Source: Escherichia coli (lineage in GTDB: Bacteria; Pseudomonadota; Gammaproteobacteria; Enterobacterales; Enterobacteriaceae). From it: a stretch of 64,000 nucleotides of DNA. The stretch lies in assembly GCF_022846255.1 (NCBI RefSeq), contig NZ_AP025682.1, one strand, 5' to 3'. The number at the start of each line of letters is the position of its first letter. Position 1 is the stretch's first letter. A program made the position numbers. This document shows positions 21,001-27,000 of this stretch, piece after piece.

Positions 21001-24000
21001 CAATGGAACTCCGCAGGTTGCGTTGCGCCAGCTTCCGGAGCCGGTACTAACTGATCAGCACCGGTAGCCTGTTTCAGCAGTGCAGGATGCTGCTCAAAGT
21101 AAGCTTCGACGTTGTTGATGGCATCACGGGTACGGGTGATTTCGTAGCCAGTGGCATTCATGTTCACCACGAAGCCTGCTGGTGCGACGCCAATCAATAC
21201 CAACATAACCAGACCAATGCCTTTCTGACCATCGTTCGCGCCGTGCGAAAACGCCACGCCGATAGCGGAAAGGATCAGCGCAATACGCGTCCAGAACGGC
21301 GGCTTTTTCTTGCCGTCTTTCTTTTCACGCTCCGCTGGGGTCAGGTGGATACGGGCGCGTTTCTTGGTGCCGCTCCAGTAGCGGCGCAGCAAGAAAATCA
21401 GACCGCCAGCAAACACCAGGCCGACAATAGGGGAAACGATCAGAGAACCGAAAATACTTAATACTTTCGGGATATTGAGTGCATCCACCACTGACGTCCC
21501 GGTCATCAACGCATTGGTTAAACCAATCCCGATGATCGCGCCAATCAGCGTATGAGAGCTGGATGCAGGTAAACCAAAGTACCAGGTACCCAGGTTCCAG
21601 ATAATCGCCGCCAGCAACATAGAGAACACCATGGCAAGGCCATGAGACGATCCCATATTAAGCAGCAGATCCGTCGGCAGCATATGCACAATGGCATAGG
21701 CAACACTCAGACCACCCAGCAAAACACCCAAAAAGTTGAACACCGCCGCCATAACCACGGCGAGCTGAGAACGCATCGCGCGGGTATAGATAACGGTTGC
21801 CACGGCGTTGGCTGTGTCATGGAAACCATTGATGGCTTCGTAGAACAGCACAAAAGCCAGTGCAAGCAATAATAACAGCCCGGTATGCAAATCCAGGCCA
21901 GCAAACAAATGTAGCATAGGACGTTACGCCATTTTGAGGACATGAACGCGGCGCATTATCAGTGACTTTCGCGGCGCGGGCAAAGTGAAATATAGACTTT
22001 TTTTGATTTGCCTCCTGTATGGATTTCACTCAAAAAATAATTATCTTATATAATTCAGGCAAATACTTCCTTTTAGTAATATTGATGCTGGTGCGACCAC
22101 TGAGGAATCTTTACAATTCACGCCCGTTTTTTCTTAGAGGAGCGCAACGTGGAAAGGTTTGATGCCATTATTATAGGCGCTGGTGCGGCAGGTATGTTCT
22201 GTTCTGCGCTGGCAGGTCAGGCAGGACGCCGGGTTCTGCTGATCGATAATGGTAAAAAACCAGGGCGCAAAATCCTCATGTCTGGCGGTGGGCGCTGCAA
22301 CTTTACCAACCTTTATGTCGAACCGGGCGCTTATCTGAGCCAGAATCCGCATTTTTGTAAGTCTGCACTCGCGCGTTTTACCCAGTGGGATTTCATTGAT
22401 CTGGTCAATAAACACGGCATCACCTGGCACGAGAAAACGTTAGGGCAACTCTTCTGCGATGACTCCGCGCAGCAGATTGTCGACATGCTGGTGGATGAGT
22501 GCGAGAAGGGCAATGTGACCTTCAGATTGCGTAGCGAAGTGCTGAGTGTGGCGAAGGATGAAACAGGCTTCACGCTTGAACTGAACGGCATGACTGTCGG
22601 TTGCGAAAAGCTGGTCATCGCGACCGGTGGGCTGTCAATGCCGGGGCTGGGCGCATCGCCGTTTGGTTATAAGATTGCCGAACAATTTGGCCTCAACGTG
22701 CTGCCGACCCGCGCGGGCCTGGTGCCATTCACTCTGCATAAACCGTTGCTCGAAGAGTTACAGGTGCTGGCGGGCGTGGCGGTGCCTTCCGTGATTACCG
22801 CTGAAAACGGCACCGTTTTCCGTGAGAACTTACTCTTCACCCACCGCGGCTTATCTGGACCGGCGGTGTTGCAAATTTCCAGCTACTGGCAACCGGGTGA
22901 ATTTGTCAGTATCAATCTGCTACCGGATGTGGACCTCGAAACCTTCCTGAATGAGCAGCGTAATGCACATCCGAATCAGAGCCTGAAAAACACACTGGCG
23001 GTTCATCTACCGAAGCGGTTGGTTGAACGTTTACAGCAACTCGGGCAAATCCCGGATGTTTCGCTAAAACAGCTCAACGTGCGTGACCAACAGGCACTGA
23101 TTAGCACATTGACCGACTGGCGCGTACAACCCAACGGCACTGAAGGCTATCGTACTGCTGAAGTGACGCTCGGCGGCGTGGACACCAACGAACTCTCTTC
23201 ACGGACGATGGAAGCGCGCAAAGTGCCTGGGCTGTACTTCATCGGCGAAGTGATGGACGTCACCGGCTGGCTGGGGGGCTATAATTTCCAGTGGGCGTGG
23301 TCGAGTGCGTGGGCTTGTGCGCAGGATTTGATTGCTGTTCAAAGATAATAAAGTTGTGCCCTAAGCATTAAAGTTGTAACCACTCTCAAAAAATGACGCT
23401 AATGTTGTATACCTAATAAATGTGTGGTTAGGTTGTAGACTATAAAACACACATGCAGGTACGCATCAATGACGTTTTGTGGATACGATCATGGCTAGGG
23501 GCAGGCATCTTAAATCCTATCTGGATTATGAGAATGCGCTAGGTGACGGCATAGGGTTGGGCTATGGACAAAGTTATCAACCTTGGCTTAGAGCCCAGGA
23601 CGTTAGATCCCACGGAAACCGTTCGATAGTCTTTGGCCTTAAATCGTTTCGGAATCACCATTTTTTTCTTCTGTCGAAAGTAACTTTTTCTACCTAGCTG
23701 AGTTTAATGACTCGATGATCGATATCCGCGAACAATTCCCACTCATACCTCTACTGCTCACCCAACAGATAGCCAATCACTTAAATGTGCATCATCCGCT
23801 TGTTAGGGGGGGGGCAGAGGCGCACCAGTCGATATCCTGAATGTTATGACAACTGATTTCTTGCTGACCTTGAGAATGCCTAGAGGGGGGATTCGATACA
23901 AAGCAATTGCAGTAAAGCAAAACGAAAGCATACCTAAACGCGAAGCAGAAAAGCTTGAGATAGAGAGAATGTTTTGGCAACTGATTGATGTTGAGTTCCA

Positions 24001-27000
24001 AATCTATACGGGTTCGGAACTAAATCATGTTGCGGGGCAGAACATATATTGGGCTACCTCGGTGCTGAGAGATGGGGCTGAGTTTTATGATAAATACCCG
24101 CTTGATAAAATTTTATGGAGGCTTAAGCCGGATGTTTATCCGATTGTGGAACTACGCGCGGCGATCTCATCAGTCTTTGATGTCGATGAACAAGAAGCAA
24201 TGATGTTATTGCAGGCTATTATTGGGTTAAAAATGATAAATGTGGATCTATCGTATACCATTCTCGAAACAGGTCTGATAAAAATAATTTCCAATGGTTA
24301 CTGCATAGGCCTGAACGCAAATGGATATTATTAGAAATTCAGTATGGTAATCTCATGACAGCGACGTGCTATCTGACGGGCTTTATCGCGTTTTGGATTT
24401 TGACAGAAATACCGATTTGTTGATTTTATTTGAAATAAAAAAGAAAGGACGAGTAAACCAATTCCATTCTCTCTTTCACAATTTACATATGGTGTGGATT
24501 CTCAACGAATAACCTGTAGGAAATATATCACCCCCTCATATTTGTTGATTGATGAGGAAAATATAACTAATGAAGACAGGAAACGGCGGGGTACGAATTA
24601 TAATATTATTAAAGAACTTGTAGAAGATAGAATGTTCATATTCAATTATGCATTTCATAAAAATCTCATTTATCGACAGAGTATTCTGGGAAAAAACAAA
24701 TCCCACAGCGTACTATCAGGACACTTCTGACTCTTTACTGGAAGTATGGGCAGGATATATATGCTTTACTGCCCGCATACCCGAACTGCGGTGGAGCAGG
24801 CAAGAGCAGAATCCGGCATGAGGTTAAACTCGGGAACGAAAAGAAAAACAGAATGTTACCTAATATACGCTCAGATGTCTATATCCTTAATGAAGGGGAT
24901 ATAGAAAATATCAGAAAACCTCTGGCCAAGTACCATTATAAACTTCATGGAGAAACGATAAAAAAAACGGTGATGCTTCCAATTAGTAGAACATGTATTT
25001 TTCAATGAAGGCCCCGAGAACCTTTTCATGTAGCTCAATTGAGCGTGAAAAGCAGATTGTTTTGCGGGCCAGACGCTTGATGCGGGTTCTCAGCGTCAGA
25101 TTGTTACGCGCAATGCGCTGAGTGAATAGTTTGCCGGTCAGATGCTTTTCCTTAGCGACTTCTCTGGCATAACTTCCCCAGTCGTCGCTCGTTACCATGC
25201 CGATATTAAACGGGGTGAGCAGAGCCAGCAGCTCACGACAGGTTTCATCCGTTCGTGGATCGAACGTATAAGCAAGAACACCACCTGTTTTGGTGTTGTA
25301 GGCATACCAGAGCCAGTGCTGTCGGGCCTTGCTGCCGACAAAGCTCCACTGTTCATCGAGCTCGCAGATGAGCGCGACATCTGCATGAGCGACCGGAGAG
25401 GACGTTATTCTCTTTGGCGCGAGTTTTTTAAAGTGCGGATGACGGTATTTATTCCAATTTTGAGTGTCCTTGCGGTATCGCGGACACCTGCTCCGTTGAA
25501 CGCCATTTCGGTGATTTGCTCTTTGACGCCGGGCTTATGCGTATTTTCATGAACGGAGATCGCCCAATAACCGGTGATCGGGTTCAGATGGATATCTGTA
25601 AAATTGGCCCCGGCTTATATCAGTACACATCTATTGATGATTGCACTCGCTACAGAGTCCTGAGGCTCTACTCTCATCGCACGGCGGCAAACACACTGGA
25701 TTTTATTGATTGTGTTATTGAAGAAATGCCTTTCCCGATACAGCGCTTTCAGACAGACCGGGGAAGAGCATTTTTTGCCGTTAAAGTGCAGGAAAGATTA
25801 AAAGAATACGGCATCAAGTTTCGTCCAAATAAGCCAGCGTCGCCTCATCTTAACGGAAAGGTTGAACGTTCCCAAAAGACAGACAAAGCTGAGTTTTACG
25901 CTACCGTAGATCTTTCTGCTGATGACCTGAAGGAACTGCAGGCAGAATGGCAGCATTACTATAACTGGGAACGTCCTCATAGCGCTCACAACGGTAAAAC
26001 TCCGATGGAACGCTACTTTGAACTTGCTGAGAAAACACCATACTCTGATGCCGTTCATGCAAACTATCAGCCCAATGAAGAGCATATACAGGAACAGAAT
26101 TACAAGCTTGAACTTGGACTGAGAAAATTGAAACGATGCCTATGAATCACACATCTAATTGCTCCTTTTTTCGGTTGACAAAATCCATTTATGAATAAAA
26201 ACATCTCCAGATACAGGTGGTGAAAAAAGATATCCTTGCAAATATTCTATTCCTTTATTTTTCATGGCTTTTTCCTGCTCTATAGTTTCGATACCTTCAG
26301 CAACGACCTTAATATGTAATCGTCTTGCCAACATAGCTATACTATCTACTATTGCTTCGGATATTTTATTTGATTCACACTGTTGGATGAAAGATTTATC
26401 CAGCTTAATAAAATCAACAGAGAAATCCTGTAAATAATGAAATGTAGAATATTCTACTCCAAAATCATCGAGGGCAAAAAGGACATTATGTTTTTGTAAT
26501 TTATCAATTATGGTATGAACTTCATTTGTATCTTGAAGTTTTTTCCTTTCTGATAATTCCAGTATAAGCTTGATTTTTTCCTTACCAAGTTGTTCTAGCA
26601 TTTGAACACATTGCTGCTCAAACTCAGGATACAGAATATTGTCTGAATTAACATTGATACCAATATGAAAATTATCTGGTATCAAATGATTTACATATTT
26701 AAATATGTTTTCAGTCTTTTTCATTAAAAGAGATGTTAAGGGAACAACCAAGTTAGAGGATTCCGCAATAGGAATAAATATTTCTGGAGAAATTATTCCT
26801 ATTTTGGGGTGAAACCATCGTAAAAGTACTTCACATCCGGTAAGACGCCCACTTACAGAACAGAATATGGGCTGAAAGTATGGGGTGAACTCTTGATTTT
26901 CTATCGCTCGGGAAATCAGTTCGGGAGTGATCACAAGGTACTTGTCTATATGATATGAATTCACAATTATAACTCTTCTATATATTTATATGGTTAAACA

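What the first reader, a model, noticed from the sequence alone, without database searches (positions are those of the whole stretch)
23479..24334. tnsA-like gene split by two frameshifts, one at a G9 homopolymer
A full-length TnsA-like sequence can be read only by switching frame twice, near 23695 and at the G9 run 23806-23814. One extra G would fuse the middle and downstream segments. Either this is a decaying pseudogene, or the poly-G tract is a slipped-strand switch, or it is a sequencing error in a homopolymer.
Basis: seen in the sequence. Interest (0 to 1): 0.5.

Follow-up and report, generated by a model that had tools for sequence, protein, structure and literature searches.

The report
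Dead Tn7-like tnsA gene remnant
This is an ordinary broken copy of a transposon gene (tnsA) inside a long-dead Tn7-like jumping element next to the E. coli gene yhiN; its run of nine G's does change length between strains, but it cannot switch anything on because the rest of the machinery is gone.

Summary
A tnsA gene (23491-24334, + strand) can be read only by changing frame twice. Compared with intact E. coli homologs (93% nt identity), it lacks one base in a T7 run (23661-23667). Its G run (23806-23814) is G9 where intact genes have GGGGAGT. The repaired product has 280 aa, matches Tn7 TnsA (PDB 1f1z, E 1e-29; Pfam PF08722) and keeps the three catalytic residues.

The gene sits in a decayed Tn6230-family Tn7-like element (23336-37710). 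That element has TGT/ACA ends, repeated end motifs and a 5-bp duplication (ATTGC) in the yhiN 3' end. tnsB is reduced to codons 1-219, with a stop, two frameshifts and an IS1 insertion. tnsC and tnsD are absent.

Eleven other public assemblies carry this allele with G9, G10 or G11. All share the T7 frameshift, the tnsB stop and, where they reach it, the IS1. So G9 is not a sequencing error and the tract does slip. G10 is probably the ancestral length and is in frame. Even G10 gives only a 206-aa ORF without the N-terminal 75 residues, which include the catalytic Glu.

Verdict: a decaying pseudogene with neutral homopolymer slippage, not a functional switch. Low interest.

The parts
23331..23335 (.). 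Left copy of the 5-bp target-site duplication ATTGC, inside the 3' end of yhiN.
   Evidence: Identical to 37711-37715. The reconstructed empty site matches 3,604 E. coli genomes contiguously at 99.7%.
23336..23480 (+). Left end of the Tn7-like element. It has a terminal TGT, a 27-nt imperfect inverted repeat with the right end, and four direct TAA(A/T)GTTGT repeats (23349, 23369, 23400, 23429). These repeats are inferred TnsB-binding sites.
   Evidence: (I5: 23336-23362 vs 37684-37710). Homology to empty-site genomes ends here.
23491..24334 (+). The tnsA pseudogene. It is 844 nt, where intact homologs are 843 nt and encode 280 aa.
   Evidence: 93% nt identity to intact tnsA of E. coli 06-00048. 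The repaired translation matches Pfam PF08722 and Tn7 TnsA in PDB 1f1z.
23661..23667 (+). T7 run, the site of the first lesion. It is 1 nt shorter than TTTCTTTT in intact genes, and the shifted frame ends at the TAG at 23695-23697.
   Evidence: It is present in all eleven related assemblies that cover the site.
23806..23814 (+). G9 run, the site of the second lesion. It is length-polymorphic among isolates (G9, G10, G11). G10 is in frame and probably ancestral for this allele.
24321..24969 (+). The tnsB remnant, covering codons 1-219 of about 708. It has a TAA at codon 10 (24348-24350) and two frameshifts, near 24440 and 24661. The DDE catalytic core is missing.
   Evidence: tblastn with the 06-00048 TnsB. 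That protein is a Tn7 TnsB homolog (PDB 7pik, E 1.4e-46).
24970..25535 (-). Partial IS1-family element that cuts tnsB. Its terminal repeat GGTGATGCTTCCAA starts at 24970. The inner boundary near 25535 is approximate.
   Evidence: 98.9% identity to annotated IS1 family transposase genes. The sequence was read.
25516..37607 (.). The remaining content of the element. It holds an IS481-like rve fragment, an EAL gene, the tibA/tibC adhesin genes, LuxR, CaiF and AraC regulators, two tyrosine invertases, and an IS3-family element (36367-37607).
   Evidence: (Pfam of called genes).
37608..37710 (-). Right end of the Tn7-like element. It ends in ...ACA at 37710 and has two TAAAGTTG(T/C) repeats (37689-37697, 37658-37666).
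   Evidence: It is 93% identical to the right end of the intact 06-00048 element.
37711..37715 (.). Right copy of the target-site duplication ATTGC, followed by the displaced last codons of yhiN (AGCGAAGTCGTCCTGA).

Best explanation
The region is the inactivated tnsA gene of a decayed, immobile Tn6230-family Tn7-like transposon. The element inserted by cut-and-paste into its attachment site in the 3' end of yhiN, leaving a 5-bp duplication.

The transposition module then decayed. tnsB was hit by an IS1 and lost everything past codon 219. tnsC and tnsD were deleted. tnsA acquired a 1-nt loss in a T run.

The last common ancestor of all copies found already carried those lesions. It most likely had a G10 tract, which is in frame and one codon longer than VRGVRG of the intact relatives. 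In that already dead gene the long G tract has slipped neutrally, to G9 in the window's lineage and to G11 in another.

Shown: the lesions, the element's ends and duplication, the loss of tnsB/C/D, and the G9/G10/G11 polymorphism on a shared broken background.

Inferred: the order of events, G10 as the ancestral length, and neutrality.
For: - Lesions against intact homologs.
- TnsA identity and catalytic residues: the Tn7 TnsA alignment is. The Glu of SSVES aligns with the Glu of SDLEL in Tn7 TnsA, the Asp of TTDF with STDF, and the Lys of AVKQ with QVKP. These are E63, D114 and K132 of Tn7 TnsA by my recollection of Hickman et al. 2000. Pfam support.
- tnsB remnant with a stop and frameshifts.
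- IS1 at 24970.
- No TnsB, TnsC or TnsD similarity elsewhere in the 64 kb.
- Ends, inverted repeat and duplication. Empty site in 3,604 genomes.
- Intact relatives at the same site encode TnsA, TnsB, TnsC and TnsD.
- The literature gives yhiN as the att site of Tn6230: PMC11406308 Table 1 and PMC10121019.
- Polymorphism: G9 in the window, L003, L004, L005 and L017; G10 in L010-L014; G11 in L015 and L016. All carry T7 and the tnsB TAA, and IS1 where the contig reaches it.
- G10 occurs on two SNP haplotypes, and each other length occurs next to it.
- No intact version of this allele exists among about 15 billion proteins: exact look-ups, and the best full-length hit is 91% identical.
- dN/dS to the closest intact allele is 0.28, against 0.085 in deeper comparisons. 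There are 26 derived changes on the window lineage and 14 on the sister lineage.
Against: - Apart from the two frameshifts the tnsA reading frame is clean, and dN/dS of 0.28 is still below 1. Most of its divergence therefore accrued while it was functional, and the relaxation signal is weak.
- Most related copies come from short metagenome contigs. Sample independence and read-level homopolymer accuracy cannot be checked here. L015 and L016 may be the same strain.
- Functional Tns proteins encoded elsewhere in the same genome cannot be ruled out from a 64-kb window.
Confidence: 0.9

Rival explanations
1. Contingency locus. The poly-G tract is a selected slipped-strand switch that toggles production of a TnsA-derived protein. 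In G10 cells this would be the 206-aa ORF from the ATG at 23715. The protein would have been recruited for a new role, for example interfering with incoming Tn6230-family elements.
For: - The tract is the only long G/C run in 64 kb.
- It varies over all three frames among near-identical copies: G9, G10 and G11 with only 3-4 SNPs in 2.2 kb.
- The G10 ORF is called as a gene with a PF08722 hit in public assemblies.
- The ORF downstream of the tract has no further stops.
Against: - The fused ORF lacks residues 1-75, including the catalytic Glu.
- The long tract is not conserved: intact relatives have GGGGAGT.
- A second homopolymer, at the tnsB/IS1 junction (A8/A9, 24960-24967), varies in the same way although that gene is disrupted, which is what neutral slippage predicts.
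- No consensus promoter was found on the + strand.
- No partner proteins are encoded in the window.
- The non-fusing lengths G9 and G11 make up 7 of 12 copies.
Confidence: 0.04
2. Sequencing or assembly error. The true genome would have an in-frame tnsA, and the two frameshifts would be homopolymer miscalls.
For: Both lesions lie in homopolymers (T7 and G9), the classic error sites. One assembly breaks its contig inside the G run (L018).
Against: - The same T7 is present in all eleven other assemblies that cover it, and the same G9 in four of them.
- G length largely follows linked SNPs: all four copies with A at 24257 have G9.
- Non-homopolymer lesions in the neighbouring tnsB show real decay: a TGG CAA to TGG TAA nonsense change and the IS1 insertion.
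Confidence: 0.03
3. Recoding. Full-length TnsA would be made by two -1 slips, by the ribosome or by RNA polymerase, on the T7 (U_UUU_UUU) and G9 (G_GGG_GGG) runs. The gene would then be functional despite its appearance.
For: By inspection of the sequence, each lesion is a 1-nt shortfall within a homopolymer that fits the X_XXY_YYZ pattern. A -1 slip at each site would restore exactly the ancestral-type reading: HFFSSVE at the first and VRGGGRG at the second.
Against: - The slippery runs are absent from intact homologs, so they are not conserved recoding signals.
- Two independent low-efficiency events would be needed.
- G10 and G11 variants exist, which a fixed recoding site would not tolerate.
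- TnsA alone cannot transpose without TnsB, TnsC and TnsD, which are destroyed or absent.
Confidence: 0.02

Closest known systems
Tn6230-family Tn7-like transposons at the yhiN attachment site (Peters et al. 2014, cited in PMC11406308 and PMC10121019). Examples are the intact copies in E. coli 06-00048 and 042, and the Tn7/pco/sil element of pMG101.
   Same: - Same insertion site in the yhiN 3' end, facing yhiM.
- TGT/ACA termini, repeated end motifs and a 5-bp duplication.
- tnsA 93% (06-00048) and 82% (042) identical in nucleotides, followed by tnsB in the same overlapping arrangement.
   Different: - Here tnsA is frameshifted twice, tnsB is cut at codon 219 by IS1, and tnsC, tnsD and the downstream gene are gone.
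- The content is the tib adhesin locus rather than CBASS or sil/pco.
- This allele is not present in any of 5,426 complete E. coli genomes; the best match is 93.2%.
Tn7 TnsA endonuclease (PDB 1f1z, 1t0f)
   Same: The repaired product aligns over residues 12-198 at E 1.2e-29. The Glu, Asp and Lys of the restriction-enzyme-like active site are conserved.
   Different: - About 35-40% identity only.
- The loop that holds the G tract is 5-6 residues longer than in Tn7 TnsA (gap in the alignment), so it is a variable loop.
- The gene here is broken.
Homopolymer-controlled contingency (phase-variable) genes of Neisseria, Haemophilus and Campylobacter
   Same: A G run of 9 or more inside a coding region, with length differing between closely related isolates and changing the reading frame.
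   Different: - No intact product exists in any tract state.
- The tract is a recent accident (GGGGAGT in relatives), not a conserved feature.
- The gene belongs to a dead mobile element, not to a surface or restriction-modification function.

Membership tests
Tn7-like (Tn6230-family) transposon | Encodes a TnsA endonuclease (PF08722, restriction-enzyme-like fold with a catalytic Glu, Asp and Lys). | tested here: met
   The repaired translation hits PF08722 at 2.3e-15 and Tn7 TnsA 1f1z at 1.2e-29 with the three residues aligned. As encoded, the gene is a pseudogene.
Tn7-like (Tn6230-family) transposon | Encodes a TnsB DDE transposase immediately downstream of tnsA. | tested here: inconclusive
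   Only codons 1-219 remain, with a stop and two frameshifts, and the DDE core is absent. The reference 708-aa protein is a TnsB homolog (7pik, 1.4e-46). The gene is present as a relic but not as a functional gene.
Tn7-like (Tn6230-family) transposon | Encodes the TnsC AAA+ regulator and a TnsD/TniQ target selector. | tested here: not met
   tblastn with the 06-00048 TnsC and TnsD finds nothing in the whole window. Intact relatives have both. The element is therefore a remnant of the family, not an autonomous member.
Tn7-like (Tn6230-family) transposon | 5'-TGT...ACA-3' termini with imperfect inverted repeats and several repeated transposase-binding motifs at each end. | tested here: met
   The 27-nt inverted repeat joins 23336-23362 and 37684-37710. 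There are four left-end and two right-end TAA(A/T)GTTG(T/C) repeats. Binding by TnsB is inferred, not tested.
Tn7-like (Tn6230-family) transposon | 5-bp target-site duplication. | tested here: met
   ATTGC is present at 23331-23335 and 37711-37715. Removing the element and one copy reproduces the uninterrupted site of 3,604 E. coli genomes.
Tn7-like (Tn6230-family) transposon | Site-specific insertion at the yhiN attachment site. | tested here: met
   The insertion is 16 nt before the native yhiN stop. Annotated elements occupy the same site in E. coli 06-00048 and 042, and the literature agrees.
Phase-variable (contingency) gene | A simple-sequence tract whose length varies among closely related cells or isolates. 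| tested here: met
   G9, G10 and G11 occur among 12 copies that differ by 3-4 SNPs in 2.2 kb. Variation within a single culture could not be tested.
Phase-variable (contingency) gene | At least one tract length gives a full-length functional product (an ON state). | tested here: not met
   All copies keep the upstream T7 frameshift. G10 gives a 206-aa ORF lacking residues 1-75 and the catalytic Glu. No full-length form is in the 15-billion-protein collection.
Phase-variable (contingency) gene | The tract is conserved among functional homologs. | tested here: not met
   Intact homologs have GGGGAGT at this position.

The most novel reading that the evidence does not exclude
The 206-aa ORF made by the G10 state would be a domesticated, catalytically dead TnsA fragment that retains the C-terminal part. 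In Tn7, by recollection, that part contacts TnsC. Its expression would be toggled by G-tract slippage, for instance to interfere with transposition of incoming Tn6230-family elements into the already occupied yhiN site.
Probability: 0.03. Interest if true: 0.55.

Novelty: new member of a known kind. Interest (0 to 1): 0.1.

Why it matters
It matters little. The locus is a textbook case of how a site-specific transposon dies in place. It shows that a homopolymer created by chance substitutions becomes a slippage hotspot once, or even before, selection is lost.

There are two practical points. First, annotation pipelines call the fragments as 68-, 162-, 183- or 206-aa 'TnsA-like' proteins depending on G-run length, and these should be flagged as pseudogene pieces. 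Second, the G9/G10/G11 states together with the A8/A9 run could serve as fast-evolving markers for typing this E. coli lineage.

A side point of more biological interest is that the tib adhesin/invasin locus lies between the ends of this dead Tn7-like element.

Tried and rejected
- **JGI metagenome and GTDB species-representative scans.** I scanned both with the allele-specific pattern around the G run, allowing a gap of 5-14 nt. Neither gave a match, so the source genome was not identified.
- **NCBIfam.** It gave no hit for the repaired TnsA or for the 06-00048 TnsB and TnsD. Pfam also gave nothing significant for that TnsB. I used PDB sequence searches instead.
- **Exact look-ups.** Products expected for G7 and G8, and the fully repaired 280- and 281-aa proteins, are not in the collection.
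- **Promoter and terminator scan, 23300-24400.** Nothing above the shuffled expectation, and no + strand promoter match.
- **Rfam on the whole window.** Nothing in or near the finding.
- **Project accessions.** A paper search for PRJEB25237 and PRJEB25476 found nothing, so sample origin and independence remain unknown.
- **SCU-485 as the empty-site reference.** I first tried it, but it carries a different yhiN 3' end. I replaced it with a search using the reconstructed empty site.
- **tibA and TnsA in the literature.** A search found no relevant paper.
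Full report
**1. What is in the sequence**

- A frame-1 piece ends at the TAG at 23695-23697.
- A frame-3 piece ends at the TGA at 23838-23840.
- A frame-2 ORF of 162 codons runs from 23846 to 24334.

A megablast against 5,426 complete E. coli genomes found no identical copy. It did find seven chromosomes with a 93% identical stretch annotated 'TnsA endonuclease N-terminal domain-containing protein', lying directly after yhiN. Many more carry an 82% identical version.

I fetched two of these, E. coli 06-00048 (L001) and E. coli 042 (L002), and aligned them with the window. Two length differences separate the window from the intact 843-nt genes.
- One base is missing where TTTCTTTT has become TTTTTTT, the T7 run at 23661-23667.
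- GGGGAGT has become GGGGGGGGG, the G9 run at 23806-23814, which is 2 nt longer.

Undoing both gives a 280-codon ORF with no other stop, 257/281 identical to the 06-00048 protein. It starts at the ATG at 23491, as the homologs do, not at the GTG at 23479.

The repaired protein hits Pfam PF08722 at 2.3e-15 and the crystal-structure sequence of Tn7 TnsA at 1.2e-29. In that alignment three motifs line up:
- the Glu of SSVES with the Glu of SDLEL in Tn7 TnsA;
- the Asp of TTDF with STDF;
- the Lys of AVKQ with QVKP.

By my recollection of Hickman et al. 2000 these are E63, D114 and K132 of Tn7 TnsA. G9 is the only G or C run longer than 6 in the whole window.

**2. Context: a dead Tn7-like element at the yhiN attachment site**

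The flanking genes (gor, rlmJ, prlC, rsmJ, dtpB, uspA/B, pitA, yhiN) are 99.5% identical to E. coli.

Homology to genomes without the element stops inside the last codons of yhiN. The sequence from 23336 begins with TGT and carries four direct TAA(A/T)GTTGT repeats. A 27-nt imperfect inverted copy ends in ACA at 37710, with two further repeats. ATTGC flanks both ends.

I built the predicted empty site from 150 nt to the left of 23336, 150 nt to the right of 37715 and one copy of ATTGC. It matches 3,604 E. coli genomes in a single piece at 99.7%.

The element is therefore 23336-37710 (14,375 nt), with a 5-bp duplication at a site 16 nt before the native yhiN stop. This is the known attachment site of the Tn6230 family of Tn7-like transposons. 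The sources are PMC11406308 Table 1, PMC10121019 hotspot #3, and PMC8417528 for a Tn7/pco/sil element that moved there in the laboratory.

In 06-00048 and 042 the tnsA gene is followed by three further genes:
- a 708-aa protein that is a Tn7 TnsB homolog (PDB 7pik, 1.4e-46);
- an AAA_22/TniB-type ATPase;
- a TnsD-like protein (8glu, 4.5e-5; RefSeq calls it 'TnsD family').

**3. State of the rest of the machinery in the window**

tblastn with the 06-00048 proteins finds only TnsB residues 1-219 (24321-24975). They lie in three different frames, and codon 10 is changed from CAA to TAA.

At 24970 an IS1-family terminal repeat begins. It is followed by about 565 nt that are 98.9% identical to annotated IS1 transposase genes. 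After that comes an IS481-like rve fragment.

No TnsC or TnsD similarity exists anywhere in the 64 kb. The element cannot move by itself, and an intact TnsA would have nothing to work with.

**4. Error, switch or decay? Evidence from other isolates**

I looked up by exact sequence the ORF products expected for each possible G-run length. I then fetched the contigs that encode those found. Eleven further public assemblies carry this same allele at 99.7-99.95% identity.

| Haplotype (24257, 24853, A run at 24960) | G run | Copies |
|---|---|---|
| A: A, A, A8 | G9 | window, L003, L004, L005 |
| B: C, A, A8 | G10 | L010, L011, L013, L014 |
| B: C, A, A8 | G9 | L017 |
| C: C, G, A9 | G10 | L012 |
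| C: C, G, A9 | G11 | L015, L016 |

L018 breaks its contig inside the G run, so its length is unknown.

Every copy that covers the sites has the T7 frameshift and the tnsB TAA. Every copy that reaches far enough has the IS1.

Three conclusions follow.
- G9 and T7 are inherited states seen in several assemblies, not miscalls of one assembly.
- The G tract really slips. At least two length changes occurred among copies that differ by only 3-4 substitutions in 2.2 kb.
- The last common ancestor of all these copies was already broken (T7, tnsB stop, IS1), so the slippage happened in a dead gene.

G10 occurs on two haplotypes, and each other length occurs next to it, so G10 is the likeliest ancestral length. 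It is 3 nt longer than GGGGAGT, which keeps it in frame (VRGGGRG instead of VRGVRG). It lies in a loop that is 5-6 residues shorter in Tn7 TnsA. The window's G9 is then best read as a 1-nt contraction of G10.

The A8 run at the tnsB/IS1 junction varies too (A9 on haplotype C), as neutral slippage predicts.

**5. Why it is not a functional switch**

The in-frame state exists in nature (G10), but its ORF starts at the ATG at 23715. That ORF has 206 codons and lacks residues 1-75, including the catalytic Glu. The long tract is absent from functional relatives. No full-length version of this allele is found among about 15 billion proteins. The non-fusing lengths G9 and G11 make up 7 of 12 copies.

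A recoding reading is formally possible. A -1 slip on U_UUU_UUU and another on G_GGG_GGG would each restore the ancestral-type frame. It needs two rare events, has no conserved signal, and would yield a protein with no partners.

dN/dS against the closest intact allele is 0.28, against 0.085 for deeper pairs. The window lineage has 26 derived changes against 14 on the sister lineage. This is compatible with a period of relaxed constraint after a long functional history, but the signal is weak.

**6. Comparison with what is known, and novelty**

This is a relic of a Tn6230-family Tn7-like transposon. It meets the family's structural criteria: TnsA, ends, a 5-bp duplication and the yhiN site. 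It fails the criteria for an autonomous element: TnsB is only a relic, and TnsC and TnsD are absent.

It resembles a contingency locus only in having a variable homopolymer. It fails the tests for an ON state and for tract conservation.

The allele itself is not in complete RefSeq E. coli genomes; the best match is 93.2%. It is a new, broken member of a known kind.

**7. Limits**

- Most related copies are short metagenome contigs.
- I could not inspect reads, and sample origin is unknown.
- L015 and L016 may be the same strain.
- Tns genes elsewhere in the source genome cannot be excluded.
- The source genome was not identified.

**8. Verdict**

This is an ordinary decaying pseudogene in an immobilised transposon. 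Its poly-G tract slips neutrally and its length has no functional consequence. Interest is low.

Noticed in passing
window 25516-37607: The tib adhesin/invasin locus lies entirely between the ends of the dead Tn7-like element, so it is formally transposon cargo. The locus comprises a tibA-like autotransporter (27817-30960, minus strand), the tibC heptosyltransferase (30953-32173, minus strand) and LuxR and CaiF/GrlA regulators. An EAL gene, an AraC-type gene and two FimB/E-like tyrosine invertases lie there too. A literature search for tibA plus TnsA found nothing relevant.
   Followed up: partly
L006 23020-23193 and about 10290-10400 (E. coli 06-00048); window 25466 and 37608-37710: In 06-00048 an intact tnsABCD element carrying a CBASS system (SAVED, SMODS, E1-like and JAB genes) occupies yhiN. 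Its right end abuts the same IS1 fragment, at the base equivalent to window 25466. A second right end sits next to the IS3 element near yhiM. This suggests successive or nested occupancy of the attachment site followed by a deletion.
   Followed up: partly
window 24960-24967: The A8 run at the tnsB/IS1 junction is also length-polymorphic. It is A9 in L012, L015 and L016, and it co-segregates with a G at 24853.
   Followed up: yes
window 24970-25535 and 25516-26145: A partial IS1-family element in inverted orientation is followed by an IS481-like transposase (rve) fragment. An IS3-family element with 45-nt inverted repeats lies at 36367-37607.
   Followed up: partly
L015 1-6000 vs window 13784-19800: In the 221-kb metagenome contig that carries the G11 copy, prlC-dtpB differs from the window by 3-4%. 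By contrast, pitA, yhiN and the element are at least 99.7% identical. A recombination boundary therefore lies near window 19-20 kb, and the dead element appears to travel with its flank between E. coli backgrounds.
   Followed up: no
window 5407-5438, 11585-11669, 58598-58676: Rfam hits at gathering score: the shuA/chuA 5' UTR thermoregulator in front of a 660-aa ORF at 5436-7418, the AgrB antisense RNA next to dinQ, and naRNA4. The chu locus points to an E. coli lineage outside phylogroups A and B1, by my own recollection.
   Followed up: no
L019 13790-13843 (E. coli SCU-485): Some E. coli carry a different yhiN 3' end (...DLVAE* instead of ...DLIAAKSS*) and lack the sequence into which the element inserted. 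The attachment site itself is therefore polymorphic in the species.
   Followed up: no
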